32,000 bases of DNA, taken from contig CP149973.1 of assembly GCA_029269845.2 (NCBI GenBank), forward strand, positions 1,980,001 through 2,012,000. The letters are read 5' to 3'. The translations under genes and the position numbers were made by a program. Below are positions 461-26,458 of this stretch, piece by piece. Source of the DNA: Opitutia bacterium KCR 482 (GTDB lineage Bacteria; Verrucomicrobiota; Verrucomicrobiia; Opitutales; Intestinicryptomonadaceae). The notes under the pieces were generated by a model that saw only the letters and a list, made by a program, of their open reading frames with translations, was not told the origin of the DNA and ran no database searches. How positions within the stretch are numbered: position 1 is the first letter of the stretch; each line of letters opens with the position of its first letter.

Positions 461-803
461 TAATTTCTACCACATATTTTGCACTGCCGGCGAACGCGTA
501 ATATACGAAGGGCGTTTCCAATGTCCTTCAAGAAAAGCCGCAATAACGCTCTTGCGCGAAAAGGTCGGACGACGAAATTTATCGGGCTTAACGTATTCCA
601 TAACGGAAATCCCCGTCGATATAATCAAGGAAGTTGTCGATTCGATAATCAATAAGAAGCCCGTTCCCGAAGGCGACATTATCACACACGACAAAACAAA
701 ATCAATCCCGCCAGCTGGGTTTGCTTCGATAATTTGCAATAAACGCAATCCAATGGCGGCGCACGGAATTGCCAATACAAGGAGAAGGCTTGGAGGGTTT
801 TGA
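450..803 (+). CDS. hypothetical protein
   Basis: 117-aa ORF. Its start overlaps the stop of the upstream ORF and its stop overlaps the next ATG (operon-style packing). No recognisable motif. Confidence 0.4.
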   Translation: MPSNNFYHIFCTAGERVIYEGRFQCPSRKAAITLLREKVGRRNLSGLTYSITEIPVDIIKEVVDSIINKKPVPEGDIITHDKTKSIPPAGFASIICNKRNPMAAHGIANTRRRLGGF

Positions 804-1219
804 TGAAATACCTTCTCGACCTAAACCAGACGCTTGTCGACCGCGAGAAAGACGCGCCGAGAATTCGACCGTTCGAGCTTCAAATTGAGCGCGAAACATA
901 CCGCCAGTGGCTCGTTGAAATCTTGCGAAATAGCTATGTAATTCTGATAACGGCGCGCCCCGTAAAATACAAACAAATGACACTCGAGCGGATTTTGGCA
1001 CTCACAAATTGGCAGCCTCGGGAAGCGTATTTCGCGGAAATTAAAACGCTCCCACACCTAAAAAAGGAACATCTCTTGCGCAAATACATTCTTCCAAGAT
1101 TTAACCCCGACGAGCTTTTCGGGATAGAGAGCAATCCTAAAACCCGCGCGATATATTCAAATTACGGAATAAATTCAACTCCCGCAATCGACGAAAACGG
1201 CGTCAAAATATCGCTCTAA
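803..1219 (+). CDS. HAD-like fold protein (weak), paralog A of a duplicated gene
   Basis: The ATG at 803 overlaps the upstream TGA. The N-terminus MKYLLDLNQTLV resembles HAD motif I (DxDxT, with the second Asp as Asn). ILITARP resembles motif II. Clear paralog of 3373..3805 (QIERETYRxWLV, ILITARP, TNWQPxEAYFAEI, FGIESN). Confidence 0.5.
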   Translation: MKYLLDLNQTLVDREKDAPRIRPFELQIERETYRQWLVEILRNSYVILITARPVKYKQMTLERILALTNWQPREAYFAEIKTLPHLKKEHLLRKYILPRFNPDELFGIESNPKTRAIYSNYGINSTPAIDENGVKISL

Positions 1220-1220
1220 A

Positions 1221-1245
1221 TTTGACACTTCCGCCGTTATGTATG
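1221..1245 (+). promoter_or_regulatory. module-start element copy 1 (TTTGACA-N15-ATG)
   Basis: tttgacacttccgccgttatgtATG. The ATG at 1243 is in frame with the ParB-like ORF. Lies in the gap after the stop at 1219. Confidence 0.5.
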
Positions 1246-1881
1246 GCAGAAGACAAAGCACGCATTTTGGCGGACGGAATTGAAGTTTGGTGCGCCTACG
1301 ACAAACTCGTAAAGGTTGACGAACTCATTCCCCACCCGAAAAATCCAAATACCCACCCGCAAAACCAGATAAAGATTCTGGCGCAAAATATCCGCTACCA
1401 CGGCTGGCGGCACCCGATTGTAGTTTCAAAGCTTTCGGGCTATATTGTGGCTGGGCACGGCAGACTCGAAGCCGCAAAAGAATTGGGCGTTTCAATCGTT
1501 CCCGTGGAGTTTCAAAAATTTTCTTCCGAAGACAACGAACTTGCCGTTCTTGTCGGCGACAACCGCTTGGCGGAGCTTTCGTCGCTCGACTTAAACGGGC
1601 TTCAAGACATCGTAGACGGCTTCAAGGAAACGAGCTTCGATACAATCTTAGCAGGCTTTGAACCCACCGATTTGAACGCTCTTCTTGGCGAAAAAACTCC
1701 CGATTTTAAAGACGAAGCCGAAAAGGAGCTTACCCAGTCGGAAGTCACAATTCAGGCTGGGAACTACCGATTCCGCATAAGTCAGGAAGATTTCGGGGTA
1801 TGGATTGACAAGTTAAAGCAGGAAGTCGGGTTCGACAAGGAATCGGTAATTGCGGAACTTCGCAGGAGGCTTTCCATATGA
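1243..1881 (+). CDS. ParB-like N-terminal (ParB/Srx nuclease-like) domain protein
   Basis: LIPHPKNPNTHP...HGWRHPIVVS...YIVAGHGRLEAAKELG matches the ParB/sulfiredoxin signature (GHxR box). Start placed at the ATG inside the repeated element rather than the track's TTG at 1222. Confidence 0.75.
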   Translation: MAEDKARILADGIEVWCAYDKLVKVDELIPHPKNPNTHPQNQIKILAQNIRYHGWRHPIVVSKLSGYIVAGHGRLEAAKELGVSIVPVEFQKFSSEDNELAVLVGDNRLAELSSLDLNGLQDIVDGFKETSFDTILAGFEPTDLNALLGEKTPDFKDEAEKELTQSEVTIQAGNYRFRISQEDFGVWIDKLKQEVGFDKESVIAELRRRLSI

Positions 1882-3389
1882 TAAAAATTGAGCCTCTTTC
1901 GGCGGTAAACCCGTCAACCTACAATCCGCGAACCGCCGATCCGAAGCGGCTTGATTTGATTGAGCTTTCGCTTCGCAAATTGGGATTTATCGCGCCCATT
2001 TACGCCGACGCAAACGGCGAAATTCTTTCGGGACACCAACGCCATTTTGTGGCAACGCGAATGGGCGTGAAAAACGTTCCCGTTTTCAGAATCCCGCCGA
2101 TGGAATTGGATAAGCGCAAGGCGTTGAACATAGTCTTTAACCGCGCCACAAACGACGGCGATATTTGCCAGACACCCGAAAAGGCTAAGCGCATTTTGGA
2201 AAGTCTAAATCTCTCGGAACTCGCCGAAAATATTCAAGACAAGGAGCTGGAGAGCAAGGAATTTTTCCGTTGCGCTTATCCTGCCAATGTGTCGGTGGCA
2301 AAACTTTGCAAGATAAATTCTGGCAGATGGATTCAATACGCAAAGAGTATTGCAAGGACTCTCCGCAAGGCTGGCATTATTATGCCGATAGTCTGTACTC
2401 CCGACGGCAAGGTTATAAACGGTATTGGGCGTTTGGAAATGCTCGCCGAACTCAAGGCGGATACTTGTGATGTTGTATATATTTCAGAGGAAGAAGCCAA
2501 ATTCGCGGACGCTATGATGAACCTGCTTACGATGGAATTCGACATTCACACGCGCTACGCCGATTTGCTTCGCTATAATTCGTTCCGACGCGCCCGCAGA
2601 GTTCGCGAAGAGTTGGGGCACGGCTTTGTGTTTGCCGTTCACGGCAACAAGCCCTGCCATAGTTTCGATATTTTCGACAACTCGCAACAGGCGAAATGGC
2701 GCAGAGAACACGGCAATTCCATTCTCGATTTCGGCGCGGGACACCTTACGGAGACAAATATTTTGAAGTCCGCGGGCTTTGATTGCGTTCCGTTTGAGCC
2801 GTATCACATAAGCGTTTCGGAAATCGACAAAGAAAAGTCCTTGGCAATATCGAGAGATTTCCTGAAAGCCGTCGGAGATGGCAAGGATTTTACGAGCGTG
2901 TTTATTTCAAGCGTATTAAATTCCGTTCCGTTCGCAAGGGATAGAGAGCACATAGTCTGCATATGCGCGGCATTGTGCCGACCTTTCACAAAGCTTTACG
3001 CCTGCGCTTCGTCAACGGCGGAGACTGGTTATAGGCAGGTAAACGGCAAGGCCTTTCATAATGAGTCGAATGCGGGTAATATCGCATTTAGACTTGAATA
3101 CGAATCGGGAGTTCGTATTGGCGATTTTCAGGACAAGCCGAAAGTTCAGAAATACCACACAAAAAAGGAATTCTACGAACTCTTTTCTCCGTTTTTTAGA
3201 AATGTTCAGATTTCGGAAATGACAGGCAACGTAAACGCCAAGTGCGAAAATGTAAGGCGCATTCCGTGGGAACGCCTCGAAGAAGCATTGAGATTTGAGT
3301 TTGACCTCCCGTATCCTGACGGTAGCCGTATGGGATTGGTAGACGAGGCAATTTCGGCATTCAAGCACCGCTATGAAATACTTGGTTGA
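1878..3389 (+). CDS. ParB-like domain(s) fused to a class I SAM-dependent methyltransferase
   Basis: N-terminus: NPRT...GEILSGHQRHFVATRMG (ParB GHxR box). A second degenerate ParB-like segment follows (IVCTPDGKVINGIGRLEMLAEL). C-terminus: ILDFGAGHL (SAM motif I), then VPFEP (acidic motif II) and VFISSVLNSVP. No DPPY/SPPY-type amino-methyltransferase motif seen. Confidence 0.7.
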   Translation: MIKIEPLSAVNPSTYNPRTADPKRLDLIELSLRKLGFIAPIYADANGEILSGHQRHFVATRMGVKNVPVFRIPPMELDKRKALNIVFNRATNDGDICQTPEKAKRILESLNLSELAENIQDKELESKEFFRCAYPANVSVAKLCKINSGRWIQYAKSIARTLRKAGIIMPIVCTPDGKVINGIGRLEMLAELKADTCDVVYISEEEAKFADAMMNLLTMEFDIHTRYADLLRYNSFRRARRVREELGHGFVFAVHGNKPCHSFDIFDNSQQAKWRREHGNSILDFGAGHLTETNILKSAGFDCVPFEPYHISVSEIDKEKSLAISRDFLKAVGDGKDFTSVFISSVLNSVPFARDREHIVCICAALCRPFTKLYACASSTAETGYRQVNGKAFHNESNAGNIAFRLEYESGVRIGDFQDKPKVQKYHTKKEFYELFSPFFRNVQISEMTGNVNAKCENVRRIPWERLEEALRFEFDLPYPDGSRMGLVDEAISAFKHRYEILG

Positions 3390-3805
3390 TTTAAACTACA
3401 CGCTTGTGGGAAATTCCCCGAAATGGGGAGAACCGCGCGCGCATTACGCCGTTTTCAAAACAGATTGAACGGGAAACATACCGCAAGTGGCTTGTTGACT
3501 TTCTGCGGGATAAATACGCAATCCTTATTACTGCGCGTCCTATTCGATACAAAGAACAAACGCTTGAAAGGATTTTCTCTCAGACAAATTGGCAACCGCA
3601 GGAAGCATATTTTGCGGAAATTTCCGCTACCCCTCCCGAAATCAAAAAAGACCTATTGTTGCGGTATATTTTCCCGAAACACGGCAAAAATAGCGCGGAC
3701 TTCTTCGGAATTGAAAGCAATCTGAAAACGCGGGCGATGTATGAACGATATGGAATAAAATCATTAAGCGAAAAAGATTTTAGAAATATCGTAAACCTCC
3801 GATAA
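3373..3805 (+). pseudogene. HAD-like paralog B, interrupted by a +1 frame change near 3410-3440
   Basis: The ATG at 3373 encodes MKYLVDLNYTLV, homologous to the paralog A N-terminus, but that frame stops at 3466-3468. Homology resumes in the +1 frame (track ORF 3404..3805: RITPFSKQIERETYRKWLV...). The C4 and G4 runs in attccccgaaatgggg lie at the junction. Confidence 0.55.
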
Positions 3806-3810
3806 TGTTC

Positions 3811-3840
3811 TTGACATCTTTGAGCACTTTTGAGCATATT
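3811..3840 (+). promoter_or_regulatory. sigma70-like promoter of the toxin-antitoxin pair
   Basis: TTGACA at 3811-3816, an 18-nt spacer, then CATATT at 3835-3840. The ATGs at 3842 and 3848 follow within 1-7 nt, so the transcript would be leaderless or nearly so. No Shine-Dalgarno sequence. Confidence 0.4.
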
Positions 3841-3841
3841 C

Positions 3842-4078
3842 ATGTCTATGAAAGAAGAAACAACATTGATAAGGGCGAGAGTTGATTCTCGCAAGGCGAA
3901 GAAAGCCGAAAAGGTATTTTCACGTCTCGGATTGAAAATGTCGGATGCCATAAATATTTTCATTTCCCAAGTAGACCTTAGGGATGATTTGCCTTTTATG
4001 GTTACGACAAAACCTGAAAGATTGCTATCAAACGAAGAACAGGGTAAAATCTGGAACGAGGCTCTCGGTGAATACTAA
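3842..4078 (+). CDS. RelB/DinJ-family antitoxin
   Basis: IRARVDSRKAKKAEKVFSRLGLKMSDAINIFISQVDLRDDLPFMV matches the DinJ/RelB ribbon-helix-helix pattern. The start is ambiguous (ATG 3842 or 3848). The stop overlaps the toxin start. Confidence 0.75.
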   Translation: MSMKEETTLIRARVDSRKAKKAEKVFSRLGLKMSDAINIFISQVDLRDDLPFMVTTKPERLLSNEEQGKIWNEALGEY

Positions 4079-4397
4079 GCAAAAACCTCGGGCTGGCGAA
4101 ATATGGATTGCCGATTTAGGAATGATTGGGAAAATTCGCCCAGTTCTTATCCTTTATTATCCAAATCCCGACGATTCGCGAATGCTCGTAATTGTAGCTC
4201 CGCTTACATCGCAAATACGGGGTTGTAATGGCGAAATTGACATTACACATATCAAGTGGTTGCCCAAGCCTTCCGCAATCAATATTCAAGGATTGGCAAG
4301 CGTGGATAAAAATTGCCTTTCAAGAAAACTCGGCATTCTGCCTGCAACAGATTTTAATAATGTAAAATCTGAAATTAAAAAACTTTTGAATCTCTAA
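4068..4397 (+). CDS. MazF/PemK-family toxin (endoribonuclease-like)
   Basis: GEIWIADLG...IRPVLIL...VIVAPLTSQIRG...PSAINIQGLASVDKNCL is a PemK/MazF signature. The GTG at 4068 is in frame and overlaps the antitoxin stop by 11 nt. The track start at 3984 would add an unrelated extension inside the antitoxin gene. Confidence 0.8.
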   Translation: MNTKQKPRAGEIWIADLGMIGKIRPVLILYYPNPDDSRMLVIVAPLTSQIRGCNGEIDITHIKWLPKPSAINIQGLASVDKNCLSRKLGILPATDFNNVKSEIKKLLNL

Positions 4398-4398
4398 T

Positions 4399-4422
4399 TT
4401 TGACACTCCGCCGTCTTGTATG
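4399..4422 (+). promoter_or_regulatory. module-start element copy 2 (TTTGACA-N14-ATG)
   Basis: tttgacactccgccgtcttgtATG. The ATG at 4420 is the ORF start. Shares the CCGCCGT core with copies 1 and 6. Confidence 0.5.
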
Positions 4423-5115
4423 GAATTACATACGGACGACAGGATTATTTCGCGGCAGAGCAACTGGGTATTTGACGAGCACGTCGCTCCCGAATTCGAC
4501 AAGCACGTCAGAAAGAGCGTGCCCAACTACGTTCACGTTCAGGATTTGGCGGAGACATTTTCCGACTGGTTCACATACCCCGATTCAACGGTTGTAGACT
4601 TCGGGGCTTCCACAGGCGAAACCCTGCGCAGAATAAAACGCCGCCATTCGAAAACGCTCAATCTCATCGGTTATGACAATTCGCAGGCGATGATAAATCA
4701 GGCGAAAACAAAAGGCGTAGACATTACTTTTGCCGACCTCGAAAAGCCGTTTGTTCTGCCCAATTTTTCCTACGCGGTTTCGCTTTACACATTGCAATTT
4801 CTGCGCCCAGACGCGCGGAACGCGCTCTTAAAGCGCATATTCCACAGCATTGAAAATTGCGGCGGAATGTTCGTCGTCGAGAAAGTTCTCGGCTCTACCT
4901 CGCAAATGCAGGACATTTTGCAACAGCTCTATTGGGAAATGAAAGCAAAAAACGGCTTTTCTTCCGAGCAAATTATCAACAAGGCAAAAGCCCTGAGAGG
5001 CTGTATGTATCCCAAAACCGTAGCCGACAACGAAGCGGAATTCTGCGCTATCGGATTCAATTCGGAAATAGTTTTCAAAGAATCGCAGTTCTGCGGCTGG
5101 CTGCTCACGAAATGA
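4420..5115 (+). CDS. CmoA-family SAM-dependent enzyme (carboxy-S-adenosylmethionine synthase-like)
   Basis: Collinear by eye with recollected E. coli CmoA. [23 protein letters not shown] matches [33 protein letters not shown] is motif I. [19 protein letters not shown]...GGMFVVEK matches FTLQFLEPSERQALLDKIY...[26 protein letters not shown] matches RANGYSELEISQKRSML. Confidence 0.7.
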   Translation: [231 protein letters not shown]

Positions 5116-5130: not shown

Positions 5131-6912
5131 ATGCCCCGCAACCCGCTTTCATCAATTTTAAGGGACGCTTGGACTCCCGCCGACCGCCGTGAGCCTTGGC
5201 GTTGGTGCGAAGACCACATAAAAAGCATTCCGTATTCGCCGCTTCCAGGACCTTTCAGAAGCGAAAATTCGCCGTGGATACGCGAAGTTATGGAGGCTAT
5301 CGTAGACCCGAAAATCCGCCTCGTCTCGATTATCGCCGCCGTTCAAAGCTCGAAGACTACAAGCCCCGAGCTTACGCTTTGCTACATAATCGCAAACCTT
5401 CCTGGACCTTGCCTTTGGCTCGACCAGACGGACGAGGACGCAAAAGACGAATCTGAAAGCCGCCTGCAAAAACTTTTTGAAAGCTGTGAACCAGTAAAGA
5501 AATTGTTCCCGAAAAACAAGAATAAACAGCGCAACTGCACAATCCATTTTTCAAACGGGATGACGCTTTGGCTGCTGGGCGCGTATAACAAGACCAACCT
5601 CCAACGCCGTTCAATCCGCTGGCTTTTCGGAGACGAAACTTGGCGATGGCCAGTCGGACATATGGCGGAAGCGGAGGCGCGAACTACGGCTTTCGGGTGG
5701 CTCGGCAAATGCGTATTTATGTCGCAAGGCGGAGAGGAAAACGACGACACCCACCGCAAATTTGAAACAACCGATATGCGCGAATGGCACTACAAGTGCC
5801 CCAAATGCGGCAAATACATTCCCTACAAGTGGGAAAATATTGAGTGGGACGACGACTGCAAAGACGAAAACGGCGAATACGACTTTTCAAAAATCAACCA
5901 TTCAACCGCCTTGAAATGTCCCGAATGCGGAGAATATTTTGAAGATTCCGACAGAATGAGGCGCATTCTAAACAAAGACGGAAAGTTTATCGCGCTTAAC
6001 CCAAACGCTTCAAAAGAAAACGTGGGCTTTCATTGGAATGCGCTTGCTTCGATGAGTTGGGGTAAGCTTGCCGAGCTTTACCTTCGCGCGAAAATTGCCG
6101 CGAGAAAAGGCGACAGTTCCTTGCTTCAACAATTCTACCAGAAACGTCTCGCGCTTGCTTGGAGGGAATTTGCCGAAGACTATCGCCTTGAAATCGCATC
6201 TGGCAGCTACAATTCGGGCGACGCTTGGGGCGATGAAGCGGGCTTCAACAAGCTCGGCGAAATCATCGCTCCGCCTTTTGCCGAAAACGAGGTTATCGCG
6301 CCACTTCGCATAATGTCGGTTGACGTTCAGATGAACTGCTTTTACTTGGTCGTCCGCGCTTGGAGCATTAACGGTTCGAGCCGTCTTCTATGGCACGAAA
6401 AGGTGTTGACGTGGGAAGACATAGAGGAAATCCAAAAGCGTTTTAAAATTTTGAACAACCTTGTGTTTGTCGACGCAGGGTATAATTCGTTCGAGGTATA
6501 CAAGCATTGCGGAGAACGGAATTGGATTGCGCTTATGGGCGACAACAGGGCAAACTTCTTCCACAGACTTCCGAACGGCAAGACGGTTTTGCGGTTTTAC
6601 TCTCCCGTAAAGCACATATTTATTTCGCGCTACGTTAAGTGCCGTATGCATTTTTGGAGCAACCTCAACGTAAAAGACACCTTGGCGAGAATCAGGCGAA
6701 ACCAGAATCCCGCCGACGGCGCAACTTGGGAAGTTCCGACGGATATTTCCGAAGACTATTTAAAGCAAATGGAGTCCGAACACCGCATAAAAAAGGGCAA
6801 CTCGTGGATATGGGAGCAAATCGGCAACCGACCCAACCACTACCTCGACTGTGAAGCTATGAACTGTGCAGGCGCGTTGATGTTGAAGATTGTGGGGAAT
6901 GCAGCAACTTGA
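5131..6912 (+). CDS. terminase large subunit, GpA (lambda) type
   Basis: 593 aa. P-loop-like AAVQSSKTT, Walker B-like WLFGDE, an internal CPKCG...CPECG zinc ribbon typical of GpA-family terminases, and position just upstream of gpW-like and portal genes. Confidence 0.9.
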   Translation: MPRNPLSSILRDAWTPADRREPWRWCEDHIKSIPYSPLPGPFRSENSPWIREVMEAIVDPKIRLVSIIAAVQSSKTTSPELTLCYIIANLPGPCLWLDQTDEDAKDESESRLQKLFESCEPVKKLFPKNKNKQRNCTIHFSNGMTLWLLGAYNKTNLQRRSIRWLFGDETWRWPVGHMAEAEARTTAFGWLGKCVFMSQGGEENDDTHRKFETTDMREWHYKCPKCGKYIPYKWENIEWDDDCKDENGEYDFSKINHSTALKCPECGEYFEDSDRMRRILNKDGKFIALNPNASKENVGFHWNALASMSWGKLAELYLRAKIAARKGDSSLLQQFYQKRLALAWREFAEDYRLEIASGSYNSGDAWGDEAGFNKLGEIIAPPFAENEVIAPLRIMSVDVQMNCFYLVVRAWSINGSSRLLWHEKVLTWEDIEEIQKRFKILNNLVFVDAGYNSFEVYKHCGERNWIALMGDNRANFFHRLPNGKTVLRFYSPVKHIFISRYVKCRMHFWSNLNVKDTLARIRRNQNPADGATWEVPTDISEDYLKQMESEHRIKKGNSWIWEQIGNRPNHYLDCEAMNCAGALMLKIVGNAAT

Positions 6913-11843: not shown

Positions 11844-13109
11844 ATGTCGATTAATAAAGATGAATTTAAAGAATTTGTTAAAGATTTAATATTCCCACTT
11901 TTTACGGGGTTATCTATATTAGAAGAAGATCTTCCTATTCCTAAAAACAACAGAGATAAATTAGTCACAACTTGTAAAGATAAAGGCGATACAATCTTAC
12001 GTTTAATGCCAGAAAAGGATGCCAAATTCGTAGTATCAATCCAACGTTCTCAAAAATTCAATAAGTCTGAAATAGAACTGATACGTCGTTTATTGAAACA
12101 TACAAACGAATACGGCTTGTATCAAGTTGATTACAAAAAAGAACTTGTTGATTTTATACATAATAAATCTGTCGCAGAAACGCTTTCAACTACAGCAGAT
12201 AAATCTATCCTGGAAATAATAAATATTTTCATGTCTCTTTCGCAAGAAACATACGAGGGACATCATATTTCATATGCAGTTGCTATTTCTGAAGAGGAAG
12301 TTGGAAATAGTGAAATTTATTTTAAGGACATTATAAAAGAAGATTTCGGGAAAACGCTTACAAATTCAATTGATTCTTTATTGTGCTTGGATAAAAATTG
12401 TATGCTACTGTCACATATGCAAATAGAGAGTATTGAGCAAAACTCTGAATTCAAACAATGTTATTATCCTTTGAGATTTGAGAAATTGGCAAATAGATCT
12501 TTAACGAAAAAATTACTAGTTATTGTTTTGACTAGAGATGGAGAAATTTTAATATTTAAAGAAGGTAATTTGATTTTTTCAAGAAGAAGAGGGATATGGA
12601 CTTATTATCTACACGACATTCTAATTAAACAGATGGGTATAATTCGTAATCAAGAAGTAAAAAAATCTATATATTCAACAATTCTAGATGCTTCTTTTTC
12701 AAAGGGCGGAGCCTGTATTGCCGTAGTAAATAGTGAAACATATTTACAAGATTTATATGACAAGAAAAATTTCATTGGAAACAATGAAGATTCGCCATTA
12801 AAGTCGAAATGTTGCTATTGCTTAATATTAAACAGTGAAAAAACATTGAAATTCAATCAATTGCCTAGAATCTTACGCTTAGAATTTTCCTCAATGGACG
12901 GTGCAGTCCTTTTAAAAACAAACGGTGATATTATCGCTATTGGTGCGATTATAAATATTAAAGATGGAGAAATTTCAGAAGGAGGTAGAACGGCTGCCGC
13001 AAGAAAGCTAGCCGAGAAAGGAATTGCAGTAAAGGTGTCTAATGATGGATATATTAGAGCGTTCAAAAAAAAGGATAAGAGATCAAAAGAATCATTCAGA
13101 ATAGCATAA
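11844..13109 (+). CDS. accessory protein with diadenylate-cyclase-like (DisA_N/DAC-fold) C-terminal domain
   Basis: AT-rich 421-aa ORF. Its C-terminal third is collinear with recollected CdaA/DisA blocks. SKGGACIAVVNSETYLQDLY matches REGALIVFEKETGLQDYI. MDGAVLLKTNGDIIAIGA contains the DGA motif at nt 12897-12905. EGGRTAAARKLAE sits in place of LGTRHRAAVGISE (nt 12981-13001). IAVKVSNDGYIRAF matches VIVSEETGDISV. Confidence 0.6.
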   Translation: MSINKDEFKEFVKDLIFPLFTGLSILEEDLPIPKNNRDKLVTTCKDKGDTILRLMPEKDAKFVVSIQRSQKFNKSEIELIRRLLKHTNEYGLYQVDYKKELVDFIHNKSVAETLSTTADKSILEIINIFMSLSQETYEGHHISYAVAISEEEVGNSEIYFKDIIKEDFGKTLTNSIDSLLCLDKNCMLLSHMQIESIEQNSEFKQCYYPLRFEKLANRSLTKKLLVIVLTRDGEILIFKEGNLIFSRRRGIWTYYLHDILIKQMGIIRNQEVKKSIYSTILDASFSKGGACIAVVNSETYLQDLYDKKNFIGNNEDSPLKSKCCYCLILNSEKTLKFNQLPRILRLEFSSMDGAVLLKTNGDIIAIGAIINIKDGEISEGGRTAAARKLAEKGIAVKVSNDGYIRAFKKKDKRSKESFRIA

Positions 13110-13115
13110 TCTGAT

Positions 13116-13139
13116 TTTGACAAAGCCCATATTCGTATG
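13116..13139 (+). promoter_or_regulatory. module-start element copy 4 (TTTGACA-N14-ATG)
   Basis: tttgacaaagcccatattcgtATG. The ATG at 13137 is the ORF start. The spacer and ATG form the terminator hairpin. Confidence 0.45.
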
Positions 13140-13148
13140 GGCTTTTTT
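13122..13148 (+). terminator. intrinsic terminator of the DAC-like gene
   Basis: aaagcccata-ttcg-tatgggcttt is a perfect 10-bp stem with a TTCG loop, running into a T6 tract, 13 nt after the stop at 13109. Confidence 0.75.
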
Positions 13149-13448
13149 CGTGAAATTAAATCGGCGTTGGTGGAAATCTTTTCCTCTTTTTCGCAGCCTG
13201 TCATTTGGCGCGGGCGCGTTATGAATGCGATAATAGCCGAGGGGCAAGAGGCGGTCGAATTGGAGACTGGCGGGTTTGTTCCCGATTCCACTTTTTATAT
13301 GAAATTTTTGGAGTCGGAACTTGACGGCGAATATCCCCACATCGGCGAAGTTGTCGAATATAATGGAAGACAATTCCGCATACATTGGGTGTCGGTTCGC
13401 GTAAAGCGCGGGCAAGTCGAAATAACCCTAAAACCAATCGACAAATGA
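13137..13448 (+). CDS. putative head-tail joining / head-closure protein
   Basis: 103 aa. The C-terminal GEVVEYNGRQFRIHWVSV...VEITL resembles the Phage_H_T_join pattern (G..Y.I..V....r..l.l). First gene after the head module. Confidence 0.45.
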   Translation: MGFFREIKSALVEIFSSFSQPVIWRGRVMNAIIAEGQEAVELETGGFVPDSTFYMKFLESELDGEYPHIGEVVEYNGRQFRIHWVSVRVKRGQVEITLKPIDK

Positions 13449-14185
13449 GCGTGAATTTTGAAATCATCGCAAAAGACTTTGAAGACGCCCTCGCAAAATA
13501 CAAAGTAGCCTGCCGCAAGGATTGGCAATTTGTGGTTCGGCAACAGTCGCGTATTGTCGGCGAAAGGCTTGTGAAATTTACTCCGCCTAAAACTGCGGCA
13601 ATAGGCAAGCGCAATGTCGCGCGGGACATTGGCAAGGTGTTTGCAGACCTAAGCAATACAAAATGGCACGACAAGTCTTTGGATAAAATGTGGCGCGCGG
13701 GAAACTTCGAGGGCGTAAAAAAGGCTCTCGAAAACAACCCTAATAAGCTTCAAATGCCCGTCTTTAAATACAAGCGGATTCTCGCAAAGCCAGTCCGCAA
13801 TATCCACAAAGCGGCAATCAGTAGAAGCGGAAGAGTCCCGAAGAATTGGCATACTACCTACGCAGTAGCAGCCAAAGGCGAACTTAAAAAATACGTCAAA
13901 AGGGTTCAGCTACAAGTTGGCGTTGCAAAATCTGGCTGGCTTGCGGCTCTTGTAAAATTGGGCGGCAAAACCCCAAGTTTTGTTTCGCGCCACGGCACAA
14001 AATACGGCGGATTTATCGACGGCAATAAGGGAGACAATCCATTTTTTACCCTAATCAACAAGGTTTCTACATTCCCGCAGGGAGGCACGCCCGCAAGAAT
14101 TTTGCGCCGCGCGTTCATCGCCCAAATAAAGGCTATGGAAAATAATATCAAACGCCTGATGGACAAATCAGGAAGGATTTTCTAA
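13445..14185 (+). CDS. hypothetical virion (neck/connector) protein
   Basis: ATGA overlap with the upstream gene, in frame with track ORF 13385..14185. Called from position only. Confidence 0.45.
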   Translation: MSVNFEIIAKDFEDALAKYKVACRKDWQFVVRQQSRIVGERLVKFTPPKTAAIGKRNVARDIGKVFADLSNTKWHDKSLDKMWRAGNFEGVKKALENNPNKLQMPVFKYKRILAKPVRNIHKAAISRSGRVPKNWHTTYAVAAKGELKKYVKRVQLQVGVAKSGWLAALVKLGGKTPSFVSRHGTKYGGFIDGNKGDNPFFTLINKVSTFPQGGTPARILRRAFIAQIKAMENNIKRLMDKSGRIF

Positions 14186-14583
14186 TGCGCGAAAAACTCG
14201 AAAATATACTTTTTACAAAGCTGAAAGCTTCGATTCCTGCGGAATTTAAAACAATGCTTGTTTGTGGACATTCCACGAACGACAGACACATTCCGTATAT
14301 CAGCCTCGATGTCGGCGAACTTCGCCCGTTCGGCGATTTGCAATCCTCCGACGGAATGTTTGAAGCCGATGTAAACATTGCCATAGCAGATTCCGCTCAC
14401 GACATCGAATATCCCGAACTCTTTAAACGCATTCGCTCCGTAATGGTGGCTTTCGAGAATTTTTCCTACACGGAAGACAATATCCTAATAAACGCCTTAT
14501 ATTACGAAAACGAAACGGACGCCAGAGACGACAACAACCTCGGCTGTGTAATGACATTCAAAGCCGTAGTTCAGTTTTTGTAA
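14185..14583 (+). CDS. putative tail completion/terminator-like protein
   Basis: 132 aa, with a TAATG overlap with the upstream gene. Size and position resemble DUF3168/gpU-like proteins. Weak call. Confidence 0.35.
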   Translation: MREKLENILFTKLKASIPAEFKTMLVCGHSTNDRHIPYISLDVGELRPFGDLQSSDGMFEADVNIAIADSAHDIEYPELFKRIRSVMVAFENFSYTEDNILINALYYENETDARDDNNLGCVMTFKAVVQFL

Positions 14584-14592
14584 CAGAAAAAT

Positions 14593-14616
14593 TTTGACAC
14601 CGTTCCCTTTTGTATG
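14593..14616 (+). promoter_or_regulatory. module-start element copy 5 (TTTGACA-N14-ATG)
   Basis: tttgacaccgttcccttttgtATG. The ATG at 14614 is the ORF start. tttgtatg-N7-catacaaa (14609-14631) can pair across the AUG. Confidence 0.5.
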
Positions 14617-14976
14617 AGCAATCCATACAAACTAAGAGGGACAAAACAGCCTGTTTCTTTCGGCGTTGAAAAGCTTGACGGCTACATTGTCGACGCCACC
14701 GAAGAGACTATCGAGGGCGAAGAGCTTGAAGTTGAAGACGAAAACAACAACGTAGTTGCGCATTTTTCGGGCTTCGGGATTCGATACAAACGCACTGCAA
14801 GCGTGATTCCGCTTGTAGGCGCAACCGCGCCTCTTCCTGGAGATTCGTTTAAAATCGGCGACAGCTTCGAATTCATCGTAAAGTCTGTCAAGAAATCCCG
14901 CGCCCGCAAGGACGTTGAAAAATGGGATTTGGAGGGCACATACTACCCCGAAGTCCCTATGGAGGGAATCGGGTAA
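14614..14976 (+). CDS. putative major tail protein
   Basis: 120 aa, two genes upstream of the tape measure. Positional inference only. Confidence 0.3.
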   Translation: MSNPYKLRGTKQPVSFGVEKLDGYIVDATEETIEGEELEVEDENNNVVAHFSGFGIRYKRTASVIPLVGATAPLPGDSFKIGDSFEFIVKSVKKSRARKDVEKWDLEGTYYPEVPMEGIG

Positions 14977-15506
14977 TGGAAGACTTCTACGAAGCCTTTA
15001 TAAATTGCTCGCACACGGCTTTGGGCAAACGCCTGAAGCCTTTTTGCTTGAAGCATTGCCTGTATTTGGAGGCTGTAAATTCGCCGATAATGCGCATTGT
15101 AAACGGCGAGGAAGCGGAAATTTCCCGCCAAGATTTGGAGGTAGCCGTTATTATTTGCTCGGCGGACGATATTCTAAAAAGCCTGAAATACCCGCATTTT
15201 GGAATGAAATTCCATTCATACAGACGCGGATTAACGGCGTTTCTTTCGTATCTGACAGACTTTGTAGCCGTTCCCGAACTCTGGGATAAAAGCGATTCGG
15301 AAACAACGCTCAACGCGCCTTGGATACTCTCGCGGGCGATGTTGCTTCTTTCAAAAACATCGCTAAGGCTTGACGAGGTTTGGAATATGCCGCTTGGAGA
15401 GCTACTCTGGTATTGCGCCGTGTTTGCCGAGCAGGAAGGAGTCGCGCAAATCCAGTCTGACGAAGAAAGGCGGATAATCGAGGAGGTGCAAAATGGCAAC
15501 AAGTAG
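14976..15506 (+). CDS. putative tail assembly chaperone
   Basis: The ATG at 14976 overlaps the upstream TAA. Lies immediately upstream of the tape measure gene and overlaps it by 14 nt. No slippery heptamer found. Confidence 0.35.
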   Translation: MEDFYEAFINCSHTALGKRLKPFCLKHCLYLEAVNSPIMRIVNGEEAEISRQDLEVAVIICSADDILKSLKYPHFGMKFHSYRRGLTAFLSYLTDFVAVPELWDKSDSETTLNAPWILSRAMLLLSKTSLRLDEVWNMPLGELLWYCAVFAEQEGVAQIQSDEERRIIEEVQNGNK

Positions 15507-16971
15507 CATTCTTGCAAAAATCGGGCTAAATTCGGCTGGATTTAAAACGGGGTTGGCGCAATGCCGAATGGCGGCGGGGAATTTCAAAAAGTCCGTCGGC
15601 GGTATGTTTTCGGGAATCGGTTCGCAGATTCTCGGAGCGTTGGGAGTGTCGGCTGGCATTGTTGGGATTTCCGCGCTCACGCAAAAAACAATCGAATTCG
15701 GCGGGCACATTGAGGATATGGCAAACCAGCTGCGAATGGGCAAAAGCGAATTTCAATCGCTTGCCTACGCCGCAAAGCTTGCGGGGGTTGAAGAATCGAA
15801 GCTTGTCCAGACTCTGCAAACCCTCAATCAGCGCACGATTGACGCCTGCGACGGCAACGATACCTACCGCGACGCCCTAAACCGCCTCGGCATAGACTTG
15901 AAGAATTTCGCCGACCAGTCTCCCGAAAAGCGTTTTGAAATGCTCGGCGTTGCCTTTAAGAATTCGGACGAATCGCTCACCGCGCTGAACGACATTTCGA
16001 CGATATTGGGGCAAAAGACAGCTCCGCAACTTTTGGAGGTTTTGGACAAGGTGGCGACGCAGGGAATGGAAAACATAACCCAGTCGGCAATCGAAGCGGG
16101 CAACGTTATGGACGAGGAAACGCTTGCCGCTCTTGCCCGCGCGGGAGACGAAATCGACAAATGGCAAAACCGAATCATAGTCGGATTCGGAGGGTTTCTC
16201 GCAGATATGGCCTCCGCAATCGGACGGCAAAAGTGGGGGCTTATGATTGGTATGAAGTTCGCCCAAGCGGGCGAATTTATCGAGGAGGCGTTGCGGGATA
16301 TTTCAAACTACATACTCGCGGTGTTTTCGAGCGTGTTTAGATACATAAACGGCGCGTTTTCGGGCTTTGTTGTTCCCATTCGCAACGCATTTGTGGGGTT
16401 TATCGAAACCGTCGGAAACGCGTTGGGGAAGTTCGTCGGAATGTTTTCCGACAGTTGGCAAAATGCGATAAACAATGCGCTTGACGGCTTACGCGAACTA
16501 AAAGACGAGGCAAACCTACTTTCCGCGAAAGACAAAAACAAAAGTTTCGGGCAGATTTTTGCAGAGGAAGTTTCCGACGCGTCGAATAGGAACAATTCGC
16601 GCAATCGCCAGAATTTGCTTACTTCAAAATCGGTTGATTGGTATAAGAAACAGCTAAAAAACGTCGAACAAGCCCGCGATGTCGAAAAGCAGTTGGCGGT
16701 TTCGGCGGAAAATGTGCGCAAGGCAAAATATCGAAAAGCCGACGAGTCGCCCGAAATCAAAAAGTCGGCAAAAGAGCGGAAGCTTGAAAAGTCGCTATCA
16801 AACCACAACGATTCGTCGCTTGCAAAAATCGGCGGAGGCGGACTTCTTGCCGCCCGCTACGACATCACCGCAAAACAGCTCTCGGAATCCAAACGCCAGT
16901 CGAAACTGCTCCAAAAGATAGCCGACAACACCGAACGCCAGTCGGTAAAATCGGAGTTGTTGATGAAGTGA
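15493..16971 (+). CDS. tail tape measure protein
   Basis: 492 aa. Gly/Ala-rich hydrophobic N-terminal segment (GIGSQILGALGVSAGIVGISAL), a long helical Ala/Leu/Gln-rich body, and the canonical position. Confidence 0.7.
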   Translation: MATSSILAKIGLNSAGFKTGLAQCRMAAGNFKKSVGGMFSGIGSQILGALGVSAGIVGISALTQKTIEFGGHIEDMANQLRMGKSEFQSLAYAAKLAGVEESKLVQTLQTLNQRTIDACDGNDTYRDALNRLGIDLKNFADQSPEKRFEMLGVAFKNSDESLTALNDISTILGQKTAPQLLEVLDKVATQGMENITQSAIEAGNVMDEETLAALARAGDEIDKWQNRIIVGFGGFLADMASAIGRQKWGLMIGMKFAQAGEFIEEALRDISNYILAVFSSVFRYINGAFSGFVVPIRNAFVGFIETVGNALGKFVGMFSDSWQNAINNALDGLRELKDEANLLSAKDKNKSFGQIFAEEVSDASNRNNSRNRQNLLTSKSVDWYKKQLKNVEQARDVEKQLAVSAENVRKAKYRKADESPEIKKSAKERKLEKSLSNHNDSSLAKIGGGGLLAARYDITAKQLSESKRQSKLLQKIADNTERQSVKSELLMK

Positions 16972-16973
16972 TT

Positions 16974-18269: not shown

Positions 18270-18309
18270 TATACATATTAGAGTGAATGTATTTTAATAA
18301 ATCAAGATT

Positions 18310-18332
18310 TTTGACACCCGCCGTTTAGTATG
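18310..18332 (+). promoter_or_regulatory. module-start element copy 6 (TTTGACA-N13-ATG)
   Basis: tttgacacccgccgtttagtATG. The ATG at 18330 is the ORF start. acccgc (18316-21) and gcgggt (18332-37) are complementary. Confidence 0.5.
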
Positions 18333-23630: not shown

Positions 23631-23634
23631 ATTT

Positions 23635-25577: not shown

Positions 25578-25578
25578 T

Positions 25579-26394: not shown

Positions 26395-26442
26395 TTGTTG
26401 CCGTTGGGGTACAAACACACTTTTCCCACAACAACGAGCGTA

Positions 26443-26458
26443 GTATTAAGAATACGAT
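26443..26458. repeat. inverted copy of the integrase-proximal palindrome
   Basis: gtattaagaatacgat is the exact reverse complement of atcgtattcttaatac at 26605-26620. Confidence 0.7.

What the first reader, a model, noticed from the sequence alone, without database searches (positions are those of the whole stretch)
4399..5115. CmoA-family (carboxy-SAM synthase-like) gene just upstream of the large terminase
The 231-aa product is collinear along its whole length with E. coli CmoA as I recall it (blocks listed in the feature entry). CmoA converts SAM and prephenate to carboxy-S-adenosylmethionine. In bacteria that product is used by CmoB for tRNA cmo5U34. The CmoA Arg that contacts the Cx-SAM carboxylate (in SQKRSML) appears to align with a Lys here (NKAKAL). 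No CmoB-like gene is evident. However, the genome encodes a ParB-fused class I methyltransferase with no amino-methyltransferase motif (1878-3389) and a C5 cytosine methyltransferase (30887 onward). Engineered C5 methyltransferases are known to accept Cx-SAM and make 5-carboxymethylcytosine. Hypothesis: the phage makes Cx-SAM to carboxymethylate its own DNA as an anti-restriction hypermodification. Alternatively, it may reprogramme host tRNA wobble modification. The gene also occupies the slot where a small terminase is usually found, and no TerS candidate is obvious upstream of TerL.
Basis: partly seen in the sequence, partly recalled or inferred. Interest (0 to 1): 0.75.

Follow-up and report, generated by a model that had tools for sequence, protein, structure and literature searches.

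The report
Phage carboxy-SAM synthase with ParB-methyltransferase partner
This prophage gene very probably makes the unusual cofactor carboxy-SAM, as recently proven for other phages, but here it is locked to a ParB-fused methyltransferase-like protein instead of the known DNA cytosine carboxymethylase, which points to a second, undescribed carboxy-SAM-using modification system.

Summary
The ORF is real (4420-5115, 231 aa) and is a full-length CmoA homolog (TIGR00740 E=5e-37; PDB 4GEK E=2e-24; phrog_4752 E=1e-57). It falls below NCBI's equivalog cutoff, but so does the biochemically validated phage enzyme SpCmoA, and both share the same pocket-Arg configuration.

The general idea, that phage CmoA supplies Cx-SAM for DNA carboxymethylation, was published in December 2025 (Yang et al., Nat Commun: CmoA + CmoX + CmoY). 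This window does not fit that system. Its only C5-MTase is an ordinary M.HhaI-like enzyme (GFPC, Asn at the CmoX-Arg350 column). It lies 26 kb away, has low GC, and is absent from related phages.

Instead, cmoA belongs to a conserved module nested between TerS and TerL: HAD phosphatase-like protein, small ParB, 503-aa ParB-fused class I methyltransferase-fold protein, then CmoA.
- 68 of 68 evaluable ParB-fusion loci carry a CmoA.
- No locus has both the ParB-fusion and a CmoX.
- The module recurs in Gordonia phage Evaa, Pseudomonas phage SM1 and Aeromonas phage HJ05.

The likely Cx-SAM consumer is therefore the ParB-fusion, a candidate new carboxymethyltransferase class whose target is unknown. 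This rests on computation only.

The parts
800..1219 (+). HAD-fold phosphatase-like protein, copy 1 (phrog_32036, 139 aa), intact
   Evidence: phrog_32036 E=1e-29. AF2 pLDDT 94.4. The best PDB match is the T4 Pnkp 3'-phosphatase domain, TM 0.73, RMSD 2.8 A. Motif I reads D7-x-N9-x-T11. Homologs are present in 87 of 93 ParB-fusion-type loci and in no CmoX-type locus. It is 43% identical to Gordonia phage Evaa gp4, annotated 'phosphatase' (copy 2: 47%).
1222..1881 (+). Small ParB-like protein (219 aa)
   Evidence: PF02195 ParB_N E=4.6e-7; phrog_498 and phrog_620. It lies upstream of the ParB-fusion in nearly all of the 79 loci and in Evaa gp1, SM1 gp051 and HJ05 gp1.
1878..3389 (+). 503-aa fusion protein with two ParB-N-like domains and a C-terminal class I Rossmann methyltransferase-fold domain (phrog_5475). 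Proposed Cx-SAM-dependent transferase.
   Evidence: phrog_5475 E=8e-102. AF2 pLDDT 83, pTM 0.70. Foldseek matches ParB/Noc N-domains and small class I MTases 3sm3, 1ve3, 3h2b and XrdM at probability 1.0. Invariant residues are NPR 16-18, GHQR 52-55, DFGAG 284-288, E307 and V346-x-N348-S349. A CmoA gene lies downstream in 68 of 68 evaluable loci.
3373..3805 (+). HAD-fold phosphatase-like protein, copy 2, interrupted by a +4-nt frameshift in a (CG)n run near 3434-3442. The listed ORF is 3404-3805.
   Evidence: phrog_32036 E=1.4e-29. Comparison with the intact 142-aa gene in L001 shows the 4-nt insertion.
3830..4397 (+). RelB-like and MazF/PemK-like toxin-antitoxin cassette. It is an insertion inside the module, not part of the system.
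   Evidence: phrog_2737 and phrog_1936; RelB and PemK_toxin Pfam hits in L001. It is present only in the window and L001; the other relatives skip window 3780-4397.
4420..5115 (+). CmoA-family protein (231 aa), probable carboxy-S-adenosyl-L-methionine synthase
   Evidence: TIGR00740 E=4.8e-37; 4GEK E=1.8e-24; phrog_4752 E=1e-57. The TLQF motif, E154/K155, K175 and K188 are conserved, and R193 matches validated SpCmoA.
5131..6912 (+). Large terminase (lambda GpA-like), 15 nt downstream of cmoA. It marks the 3' boundary of the module within the packaging operon.
   Evidence: phrog_15 E=3e-82; GpA_ATPase and GpA_nuclease Pfam hits in L001, where cmoA and terL overlap by 4 nt.

Best explanation
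Proposed mechanism:
1. The 231-aa protein is a phage-type CmoA. It converts SAM plus prephenate into carboxy-SAM (Cx-SAM).
2. The consumer is not CmoB (tRNA) and not a CmoX-type C5 cytosine enzyme. It is the neighbouring 503-aa protein, in which two ParB-N (NTP-binding, DNA-associated) domains are fused to a class I methyltransferase-fold domain.
3. That fusion protein, helped by the small ParB and a Pnkp-like HAD protein, transfers the carboxymethyl group to phage DNA. Timing is late in infection, just before packaging, because the module sits between TerS and TerL. The probable benefit is protection from host nucleases.

Shown here: the family membership of each protein, the folds, the strict gene linkage, and the absence of CmoX, CmoY and CmoB.
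Inferred: Cx-SAM synthesis by this particular enzyme, Cx-SAM use by the fusion protein, DNA as the substrate, and the anti-restriction role. The modified atom or base is unknown.
For: CmoA identity:
- Homology is full-length.
- The validated Cx-SAM synthase SpCmoA (PMC12783734) scores lower on TIGR00740 than the window protein (115.6 vs 127.9 bits).
- SpCmoA, the window protein and 49 of 50 CmoX-linked CmoAs share the same configuration: no Arg at the E. coli 199 column, and Arg at the E. coli 203 column.

Linkage:
- Starting from CmoA, 14 loci have the ParB-fusion adjacent on the same strand, with gaps as small as 3 nt. Fifty loci have an Arg-type CmoX. None has both.
- Starting from the ParB-fusion, 68 of 68 evaluable loci and 10 of 11 short loci carry a CmoA downstream. 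None of the 79 has a C5-MTase or a CmoY.
- The module recurs in Gordonia phage Evaa, Pseudomonas phage SM1 and Aeromonas phage HJ05, upstream of different TerL families.
- ParB-fusions 63-66% identical to the window's are paired with CmoAs only about 30% identical, and ParB-fusion-linked CmoAs are polyphyletic.

Fold and active site:
- The fusion's C-terminal domain has a class I MTase fold with intact SAM-type motifs.
- Relatives without a CmoA neighbour (Bacteroides phage BS-TP3, Yersinia phage vB_YpM_39) have Asp at the end of beta-4. CmoA-linked members have Ser, Asn or Ala there and additionally carry R356 and K422. That position maps onto CmoA F133, which contacts the carboxymethyl group (PMC4482062; register).

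Precedent: ParB-like proteins are required activators of a phage DNA-modifying dioxygenase on dsDNA (PMC13229309).
Against: - There is no biochemical evidence for any step in this system.
- The MTase domain has no sequence-detectable relative in Pfam or the PDB, and the profile-profile match to CmoA is weak (E=0.02), so the active-site mapping rests on the predicted fold.
- No coordinates were available, so I could not check that R356 or K422 face the cofactor.
- L054 carries a CmoA together with an 'unlinked-type' ParB-MTase that has Asp at the end of beta-4.
- In my alignment, the SM1 and HJ05 CmoAs lack Arg at both candidate columns.
- The window protein is below the CmoA equivalog cutoff.
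- DNA as the substrate is inferred only from the ParB domains and the position in the packaging operon.
- The role of the HAD protein is unexplained, and its motif I is D-x-N rather than D-x-D.
Confidence: 0.55

Rival explanations
1. CmoA supplies Cx-SAM to the phage's C5 cytosine methyltransferase (30887 onward), which makes 5-carboxymethylcytosine, as in the published CmoA-CmoX system.
For: The CmoA-CmoX pathway is real in other phages (PMC12783734). The window does encode a C5-MTase.
Against: The enzyme is M.HhaI-like (E=1e-64). Motif IV reads GFPCQ, and motif X reads QFGNSV, which aligns exactly on HhaI N304. In the CmoA-bearing loci collected, 50 C5-MTase-like ORFs have Arg at that column, and the window's is the only one with Asn. 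According to the paper, SpCmoX R350N is inactive with both SAM and Cx-SAM, which shows how critical this residue is. The gene is 25.7 kb from cmoA, beyond an integrase gene, has 36% GC against 46-50% for the phage core, and is absent from related prophages and contigs.
Confidence: 0.03
2. The phage CmoA raises Cx-SAM levels so that the host CmoB changes tRNA wobble cmo5U levels (translational reprogramming).
For: CmoA's classical role is in tRNA cmo5U34 synthesis. CmoB orthologs occur in some Verrucomicrobia (PMC4482062). The hosts here are gut Opitutales/Puniceicoccaceae.
Against: There are no CmoB and no tRNA genes in the window. The near-perfect linkage to a ParB-fused transferase-like protein across hosts as different as Gordonia, Pseudomonas, Aeromonas and Opitutales is not explained by a tRNA role. 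The gene is expressed within the packaging operon.
Confidence: 0.06
3. CmoA acts mainly as a SAM-consuming anti-defence enzyme. It depletes SAM, in the manner of phage SAM lyases, without a dedicated acceptor.
For: The authors of PMC12783734 raise this as a possibility. SpCmoA is ten times faster than the E. coli enzyme.
Against: It does not explain the obligatory co-occurrence with the ParB-fusion and the HAD protein, the 3-nt gene spacing in several loci, or the mutual exclusivity with CmoX. Late-operon placement is poor timing for an anti-defence depletion role.
Confidence: 0.06
4. The ParB-fusion is an ordinary SAM-dependent (or non-catalytic) protein. The CmoA-like enzyme serves another purpose in the module, for example making a different SAM derivative, or supplying Cx-SAM for modification of a protein, a small molecule or RNA rather than DNA.
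For: Relatives of the ParB-fusion exist without any CmoA (BS-TP3, vB_YpM_39), so the scaffold can work with plain SAM. CmoA homologs also occur in small-molecule clusters (L005; TglE and MccS). The substrate was not determined here. The HAD partner hints at chemistry beyond a simple transfer.
Against: The strict linkage and the charge-switch pattern at the cofactor's methyl side in CmoA-linked members favour Cx-SAM use by the fusion. The two ParB-N domains with conserved NTP-binding motifs, plus a separate ParB, point to DNA.
Confidence: 0.25

Closest known systems
CmoA-CmoX-CmoY 5-carboxymethylcytosine / 5gcxmC system of Synechococcus phage S-B43 (Yang et al., Nat Commun 2025; PMC12783734)
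   Same: A phage-encoded CmoA homolog with the same pocket configuration (non-Arg at E. coli 199, Arg at E. coli 203). No CmoB. ParB-domain proteins nearby. Presumed purpose is modification of phage DNA with a carboxymethyl handle.
   Different: There is no CmoX: the window's only C5-MTase has Asn, not Arg, and is unlinked. There is no CmoY ligase. The partner is instead a ParB-fused class I (small-molecule/RNA-type) MTase fold plus a HAD protein. The two partner types never co-occur in about 145 loci examined. That paper states that no non-C5 carboxymethyltransferase candidates were found associated with CmoA.
Bacterial CmoA/CmoB tRNA cmo5U34 pathway (E. coli; PDB 4GEK, 4QNV)
   Same: Same enzyme family and fold. 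The TLQF motif and K198-equivalent are conserved. Full-length collinearity at 29% identity.
   Different: Below the equivalog cutoff. R199 is replaced by Ala, with Arg moved one helical turn on. No CmoB partner. The gene sits in a phage packaging operon.
ParB-dependent phage T-dioxygenases (5mYOX176/ParB176; PNAS 2026, PMC13229309)
   Same: A phage DNA-modifying enzyme that works with a ParB-CTPase-fold protein. ParB and terminase genes are frequent neighbours of the modification genes.
   Different: The catalytic partner there is an Fe/2OG dioxygenase and ParB is a separate activator. Here ParB-N domains are fused to a methyltransferase fold, and a second free ParB is also encoded.
ParB-CTPase-fold fusions to methyltransferase domains in phages (Kaljevic et al., PNAS 2025, PMC12704722); for example Bacteroides phage BS-TP3 gp51-gp52 upstream of TerS/TerL
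   Same: Same architecture (small ParB plus ParB-MTase fusion next to the terminase genes), with distant homology (20-24% identity).
   Different: Those relatives have no CmoA, keep Asp at the end of beta-4, and lack R356 and K422. That survey does not mention CmoA.
TglE/TglF and MccS Cx-SAM pathways in natural-product biosynthesis
   Same: A CmoA homolog supplies Cx-SAM to a dedicated non-tRNA carboxymethyltransferase.
   Different: Those transferases are CmoB-like or act on peptides or nucleotides. Here the putative transferase is ParB-tethered and encoded in a virion-packaging operon.

Membership tests
CmoA, carboxy-SAM synthase (TIGR00740 / PRK15451) | Full-length homology to characterised CmoA (class I MTase fold with the CmoA-specific N- and C-terminal helices) | tested here: met
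   TIGR00740 E=4.8e-37 over residues 10-225; 4GEK E=1.8e-24 and 1IM8 E=3.7e-21; the next-best family, BioC, reaches only E=3e-7.
CmoA, carboxy-SAM synthase (TIGR00740 / PRK15451) | Score above NCBI's curated equivalog cutoff | tested here: not met
   127.9 bits against a cutoff of 193.3, and 90.9 against 285. The cutoff is uninformative for phage enzymes: validated SpCmoA scores 115.6 and 102.
CmoA, carboxy-SAM synthase (TIGR00740 / PRK15451) | Arg at the E. coli R199 position, the only side chain contacting the Cx-SAM carboxylate (PMC4482062) | tested here: not met
   Ala189 occupies that column. Validated SpCmoA has Glu there, and none of the 50 CmoX-linked CmoAs has Arg there.
CmoA, carboxy-SAM synthase (TIGR00740 / PRK15451) | Pocket configuration of the biochemically validated phage enzyme SpCmoA: Arg at E. 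coli column 203, plus TLQF, E164/K165, K185 and K198 | tested here: met
   R193, T124-L125-Q126-F127, E154/K155, K175 and K188 are all present. Arg occupies this column in 49 of 50 CmoX-linked CmoAs.
CmoA, carboxy-SAM synthase (TIGR00740 / PRK15451) | Catalysis: SAM + prephenate gives Cx-SAM + phenylpyruvate | not testable with these tools
   Requires an enzyme assay with LC-MS (m/z 443).
Phage CmoA-CmoX(-CmoY) 5cxmC system (PMC12783734) | CmoX: a C5-MTase homolog with the SPPC motif and Arg at SpCmoX position 350 (replacing HhaI N304) | tested here: not met
   The window's MTase reads GFPC and Asn (QFGNSV), identical to M.HhaI at both positions. No other C5-MTase is present in the window.
Phage CmoA-CmoX(-CmoY) 5cxmC system (PMC12783734) | CmoX adjacent to or near cmoA | tested here: not met
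   The MTase is 25.7 kb away and absent from related prophages. In CmoX-type loci the gap ranges from 0 to about 1,400 nt.
Phage CmoA-CmoX(-CmoY) 5cxmC system (PMC12783734) | CmoY asparagine-synthetase-like amide ligase (optional component) | tested here: not met
   No SpCmoY homolog is found in the window or in any ParB-fusion-type locus.
ParB-CTPase-fold / methyltransferase fusion proteins (1878-3389) | ParB N-terminal domain with conserved NTP-binding motifs (GxxR and others) | tested here: met
   PF02195 (weak) and phrog_620; Noc and ParB structures by profile (E=1e-5) and by Foldseek; NPR 16-18, GHQR 52-55 and N88/N92 are invariant.
ParB-CTPase-fold / methyltransferase fusion proteins (1878-3389) | Class I Rossmann MTase fold with the glycine-rich motif I and the beta-2 acidic residue | tested here: met
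   AF2 strand and helix order; Foldseek probability 1.0 to 3sm3, 1ve3, 3h2b, 8rdl and METTL6; DFGAG 284-288 and E307 are invariant.
ParB-CTPase-fold / methyltransferase fusion proteins (1878-3389) | Amino-methyltransferase motif IV (D/N/S)PP(Y/F/W), expected of N6-A or N4-C DNA MTases | tested here: not met
   The post-beta-4 motif is V-L-N-S-V-P-F.
ParB-CTPase-fold / methyltransferase fusion proteins (1878-3389) | Use of Cx-SAM rather than SAM, and DNA as the substrate | not testable with these tools
   Supported only indirectly: linkage and the Asp-to-Ser/Asn/Ala change plus R356 and K422 relative to relatives without CmoA.
HAD phosphatase, T4 Pnkp 3'-phosphatase type (800-1219) | Capless HAD Rossmannoid fold | tested here: met
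   AF2 pLDDT 94.4; 5UJ0 TM 0.73/0.71, RMSD 2.8 A.
HAD phosphatase, T4 Pnkp 3'-phosphatase type (800-1219) | Catalytic motif I D-x-D-x-T and an acidic motif IV | tested here: inconclusive
   The nucleophile Asp7 and Thr11 are conserved, but position +2 is Asn9, and motif IV reads E110-S111-N112. Phosphatase activity is therefore not assured.

The most novel reading that the evidence does not exclude
The ParB-fused class I methyltransferase-fold protein (phrog_5475 family, more than 1,000 protein clusters) is a second, CmoX-independent family of Cx-SAM-dependent DNA carboxymethyltransferases. Together with a small ParB and a Pnkp-like HAD enzyme, it installs an undescribed DNA modification on phage genomes as they are packaged. 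The target need not be C5 of cytosine. The system is spread across phages of Verrucomicrobiota, Actinobacteria, Proteobacteria and cyanobacteria.
Probability: 0.45. Interest if true: 0.85.

Novelty: new variant of a known kind. Interest (0 to 1): 0.72.

Why it matters
Cx-SAM-dependent DNA modification was shown to be natural only in December 2025, and only through C5-cytosine enzymes (CmoX). That study reported finding no other carboxymethyltransferase type associated with phage CmoA.

The module described here is a strong genomic candidate for exactly that. It pairs CmoA with an unrelated transferase scaffold, tethered to ParB domains, that always travels with CmoA and never with CmoX.

If it is confirmed, several things follow:
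- A new enzyme class and probably a new modified base would be added to phage DNA chemistry.
- ParB-MTase fusions, and the small ParB genes so often found next to terminase genes, would gain a concrete function.
- A new carboxyl-handle DNA-labelling enzyme would be available, with a specificity different from CmoX or engineered M.MpeI.

Three cultured phages (Gordonia phage Evaa, Pseudomonas phage SM1/PaMx31 group, Aeromonas phage HJ05) make the hypothesis directly testable by nucleoside LC-MS.

Tried and rejected
1. The C5-MTase at 30887 as the Cx-SAM user. Rejected on motif IV and motif X residues, distance, GC content and absence from relatives.
2. 'Below the equivalog cutoff means not a CmoA'. 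Rejected because validated SpCmoA scores lower.
3. An apparent ~590-nt insertion or intron in many ParB-fusion genes (matches spanning 2,093 nt). This is an artefact: tblastn joined the upstream small ParB paralog into the match.
4. A sequence search of the MTase domain against the PDB, both as a single sequence and as a profile, found nothing beyond ParB/Noc. Pfam and NCBIfam find no MTase model for it.
5. Profile-profile comparison of the ParB-fusion with CmoA gave only E=0.02. I used it for register only.
7. Promoter and terminator scans were at chance level.
8. MT835562 'Bacteriophage sp.', the closest CmoA relative among deposited phage records, has a small-molecule context (saccharopine-DH-like, PEMT-like, ABC exporter), so it says nothing about DNA.
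9. Literature on Samunavirus, PaMx31, Evaa and HJ05 contains no DNA-modification data. No paper was found that describes a ParB-fusion/CmoA system.
10. S-B43 coordinates 90-125 kb did not contain cmoA. The module was located at 147,082-149,704 through its 100% identity to S-B05.
Full report
OBSERVATION

The window carries an ATG ORF at 4420-5115 (+ strand, 231 aa). It lies 22 nt after a MazF-like gene and 15 nt before the large terminase gene (5131-6912). The product is a full-length CmoA homolog:
- NCBIfam TIGR00740, E=4.8e-37, residues 10-225 on profile positions 9-233 of 239.
- E. coli CmoA structure 4GEK, E=1.8e-24, and H. influenzae YecO 1IM8, E=3.7e-21.
- Phage family phrog_4752, annotated 'tRNA methyltransferase', E=1e-57.
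- Pfam sees only generic Methyltransf_25.

The score of 127.9 bits is below the curated equivalog cutoff of 193.3 bits.

WHAT IS ALREADY KNOWN

Yang et al. (Nat Commun, December 2025; PMC12783734) established the following for Synechococcus phage S-B43:
- It encodes an active Cx-SAM synthase, SpCmoA, with kcat 2.33 per second.
- SpCmoA supplies a C5-MTase homolog, CmoX, which makes 5-carboxymethylcytosine.
- CmoX is defined by an SPPC motif and by Arg350 replacing M.HhaI Asn304.
- An asparagine-synthetase-like ligase, CmoY, then adds glycine.

The authors found 5,615 candidate CmoX sequences, often with CmoA and with ParB-domain proteins nearby. They state that they found no candidate N6-adenine or N4-cytosine carboxymethyltransferases associated with CmoA.

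IS THE WINDOW PROTEIN LIKELY TO BE AN ACTIVE Cx-SAM SYNTHASE?

The CmoA-CmoY-CmoX module of phage S-B05 is 100.0% identical in DNA to that of S-B43. I used it as the validated reference.

The validated SpCmoA scores only 115.6 bits on TIGR00740, which is lower than the window protein. The equivalog cutoff therefore says nothing about phage enzymes.

In E. coli CmoA, only Arg199 contacts the Cx-SAM carboxylate (PMC4482062). In SpCmoA the same column is Glu, and none of the 50 CmoX-linked phage CmoAs has Arg there. Instead, 49 of those 50, SpCmoA and the window protein all have Arg at the column of E. coli Glu203 (window R193). That is four residues on, one helical turn.

The CmoA-specific TLQF motif and the residues E154/K155, K175 and K188 are conserved. 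I rate Cx-SAM synthase activity as likely, at about 0.8.

THE C5-MTASE IS NOT A CmoX

The gene at 30887, cut by the window end, encodes an HTH_26 domain fused to a PF00145 methylase. Its closest solved relative is M.HhaI (E=1e-64). It matches SpCmoX (8YF3) only at E=1.6e-14.

I aligned 55 C5-MTase-like ORFs from all the CmoA-bearing loci collected. Fifty have Arg at the R350 column: 43 with SPPC, 6 with GFPC and 1 with SFPC. The window's enzyme reads GFPC and QFGNSV, identical to M.HhaI at both sites.

Other features also set this gene apart:
- It lies 25.7 kb from cmoA, beyond the structural genes, a low-GC glycosyltransferase block and an integrase gene.
- Its GC content is 36%, against 46-50% for the phage core.
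- It is absent from related prophages and contigs.

It is an ordinary, separately acquired methyltransferase.

WHAT cmoA IS REALLY LINKED TO

A 34-kb contig whose CmoA-like protein is 99% identical to the window's (L001) has the same gene order. The order is: HAD-like, small ParB, 503-aa ParB-fusion, HAD-like, RelB/PemK, CmoA, TerL (GpA-type), portal.

The 503-aa protein (phrog_5475, 'unknown function', E=8e-102) has full-length homologs in cultured phages that also carry a CmoA-like gene right beside it:
- Gordonia phage Evaa: gp1 ParB, gp2 'ParB-N-terminal-like domain methyltransferase' (43% identity, E=1e-122), gp4 'phosphatase', gp5 CmoA-like, gp6 terminase.
- Pseudomonas phage SM1: gp051, gp052 and gp053, followed by TerL gp055.
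- Aeromonas phage HJ05: gp1 to gp3, followed by TerL gp5.

I then quantified the linkage in both directions.

Starting from CmoA, I took 80 IMG/VR loci plus reference loci. Fourteen loci, counting the window and the reference phages, have the ParB-fusion adjacent on the same strand, and in four of them the gap is 3 nt. Fifty loci have an Arg-type CmoX. None has both.

Starting from the ParB-fusion, I took 79 further IMG/VR loci. All 68 loci with at least 2.5 kb of downstream sequence carry a CmoA-like gene. So do 10 of the 11 shorter loci. None has a C5-MTase or a CmoY.

Two further observations suggest the fusion needs 'a CmoA' whatever its lineage. First, ParB-fusions 63-66% identical to the window's are paired with CmoAs only about 30% identical. 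Second, ParB-fusion-linked CmoAs fall in several places of the CmoA tree, interleaved with CmoX-linked ones.

A fourth component is the phrog_32036 protein, which the window encodes twice. It is present in 87 of 93 ParB-fusion-type loci and in no CmoX-type locus.

ANATOMY OF THE PARTNERS

The ParB-fusion family is large. There are more than 1,000 clusters, and identity stays at 53% or more across Verrucomicrobiota, cyanobacteria, Vibrio and Alphaproteobacteria. Sources name it only 'ParB N-terminal domain-containing protein'.

An AF2 model (pLDDT 83, pTM 0.70) shows two ParB-N-like domains followed by a class I Rossmann methyltransferase fold. Foldseek matches CTP-binding ParB and Noc on the N-terminal side. 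On the C-terminal side it matches small class I SAM methyltransferases (3sm3, 1ve3, 3h2b, XrdM, METTL6) at probability 1.0. No sequence method recognises the MTase domain.

Across members down to 24% identity the following stay invariant:
- ParB NTP-binding motifs: NPR 16-18, GHQR 52-55, N88 and N92.
- SAM-type motifs: DFGAG 284-288 and E307.
- A post-beta-4 motif, V-x-N-S.

There is no (D/N/S)PP(Y/F) amino-methyltransferase motif.

Distant relatives of the fusion sit with a small ParB directly upstream of TerS and TerL but have no CmoA. Examples are Bacteroides phage BS-TP3 gp51-52 and Yersinia phage vB_YpM_39. They differ at the site next to the transferable group:
- They keep Asp at the C-terminal end of beta-4. 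CmoA-linked members have Ser, Asn or Ala there (window S344).
- CmoA-linked members additionally carry R356 and K422.

By the AF2 secondary structure, and by a weak profile-profile alignment (E=0.02), S345 and VLNS align with E. coli CmoA F133 and TLQF. F133 contacts the carboxymethyl methylene. Loss of a negative charge and gain of two positive charges beside the cofactor's S-substituent is what a switch from SAM to Cx-SAM would require. It parallels the Asn-to-Arg change in CmoX. This is inference, because I had no coordinates to verify the geometry. One locus, L054, is an exception.

The phrog_32036 protein models at pLDDT 94 as a capless HAD fold. Its closest match is the T4 polynucleotide kinase 3'-phosphatase domain (TM 0.73). 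Its motif I is D-x-N-x-T rather than D-x-D-x-T, so its activity is uncertain.

CONTEXT

The closest genomic copies (89-96% identity) are prophages in human-gut Opitutales/Puniceicoccaceae (Hadza MAGs, strain Marseille-Q1082, Coraliomargarita sp. CAG:312).

In L001 a phrog_57 small-terminase gene lies about 1.3 kb left of the window's first base. The whole modification module is therefore nested between TerS and TerL.

In SM1, HJ05, Evaa and BS-TP3 the equivalent modules also sit just upstream of the terminase genes, although the TerL families differ. A ParB-like protein has been shown to be an obligatory activator of a phage DNA dioxygenase on dsDNA (PMC13229309). ParB-MTase fusions are catalogued as phage-enriched, without any link to CmoA (PMC12704722).

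MECHANISM PROPOSED

1. CmoA converts SAM and prephenate into Cx-SAM.
2. The ParB-fusion is loaded on or tethered to DNA through its ParB domains, with the small ParB.
3. It transfers the carboxymethyl group to phage DNA late in infection, before packaging.
4. The HAD enzyme performs an unknown accessory step.
5. The modified DNA resists host nucleases.

Shown here: family and fold assignments, gene linkage, and the absence of CmoX, CmoY, CmoB and tRNA genes. Inferred: every catalytic step, DNA as the substrate, and the biological role. Overall confidence is 0.55.

RIVALS

- The C5-MTase is the consumer: 0.03.
- Host tRNA reprogramming: 0.06.
- SAM depletion: 0.06.
- The fusion uses plain SAM, or the Cx-SAM goes to a non-DNA target: 0.25.

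NOVELTY AND VERDICT

The CmoA gene itself is a new member of a now-known kind. The system it belongs to is a variant that I could not find described in the literature: CmoA with a ParB-fused class I methyltransferase, a small ParB and a HAD protein, mutually exclusive with CmoX. It is widespread, and it is directly testable in three cultured phages. Interest is 0.72. All evidence is computational.

Noticed in passing
window 3373-3805: The second HAD-like gene copy is split by a +4-nt insertion (gcgc) in a (CG)n run near 3434-3442, relative to the intact 142-aa gene in L001. The N-terminal 22 codons, which hold the D-x-N-x-T motif, are in another frame. It could be a pseudogene, slippage or an assembly error.
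   Followed up: partly
window 3830-4397: A RelB-like / MazF(PemK)-like toxin-antitoxin cassette is inserted between the HAD gene and cmoA. It is present only in the window and in L001. The best promoter-like site of the region (3811-3840) sits just in front of it, although the scan overall was at chance level.
   Followed up: partly
window 11844-13109: A 421-aa protein with a weak DisA-type diadenylate-cyclase (DAC) domain hit (E=1e-5, below the gathering score) occupies a variable slot between the head and tail genes. L001 has a reverse-strand DUF3644 gene in the same place. It may be a defence or anti-defence moron.
   Followed up: no
window 16974-18269 (- strand): A reverse-strand gene for a Schlafen AlbA_2 + HATPase_c_4 + winged-HTH protein (phrog_12156, E=2e-60) is inserted directly after the tape-measure gene (15493-16971).
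   Followed up: no
window 22094-27617: A low-GC (38%) reverse-strand cluster of glycan-modifying genes (MptE-like, FkbM methyltransferase, an unknown 368-aa protein, GT8, GT25) is followed by a tyrosine integrase at 26622-27617. It may be lysogenic-conversion cargo or flanking host or other-element DNA. The prophage boundary was not determined.
   Followed up: no
window 30887-32000: An HTH_26-fused M.HhaI-like C5 cytosine methyltransferase, cut by the window end. It has 36% GC and canonical SAM-type residues, and it is absent from related phages.
   Followed up: yes
L001 4297-4974 (about 1.3 kb left of window position 1): A small terminase candidate (phrog_57, E=1e-13). The modification module lies between TerS and TerL.
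   Followed up: partly
L005 (MT835562.1) 12852-19792; also L023: The CmoA homolog closest to the window's outside its own clade (37% identity) sits among two saccharopine-dehydrogenase-like genes, two PEMT-like methyltransferases and an ABC exporter. This looks like a small-molecule pathway in a record labelled 'Bacteriophage sp.'
   Followed up: partly
L003 9500-10507 (Staphylococcus phage vB-SscS-F1); L011 6672-7679 (SPbeta-like): The C5-MTases next to CmoA have GSPC and Gly (VVGGVI) at the SpCmoX R350 column, neither Arg nor Asn. They may be a third cofactor-pocket solution.
   Followed up: no
L180 5267-9139 (Bacteroides phage BS-TP3); L181 5234-7230 (Yersinia phage vB_YpM_39): A small ParB plus a ParB-MTase fusion lie directly upstream of TerS and TerL (shown for BS-TP3) with no CmoA. 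This suggests the architecture is a general packaging-operon feature, of which the CmoA-linked form is one branch.
   Followed up: partly
L054 9926-14200: This contig has a CmoA-like gene followed 2 kb downstream by a ParB-MTase of the 'unlinked' type (Asp at the end of beta-4, no R356 or K422). It is an exception to the charge-switch pattern.
   Followed up: no
L173 and L175 (Puniceicoccaceae bacterium Marseille-Q1082, contig CAJGBI010000001.1): One cultured gut isolate carries two related prophages, each with the ParB-fusion/CmoA/TerL block. It is a possible experimental host.
   Followed up: no
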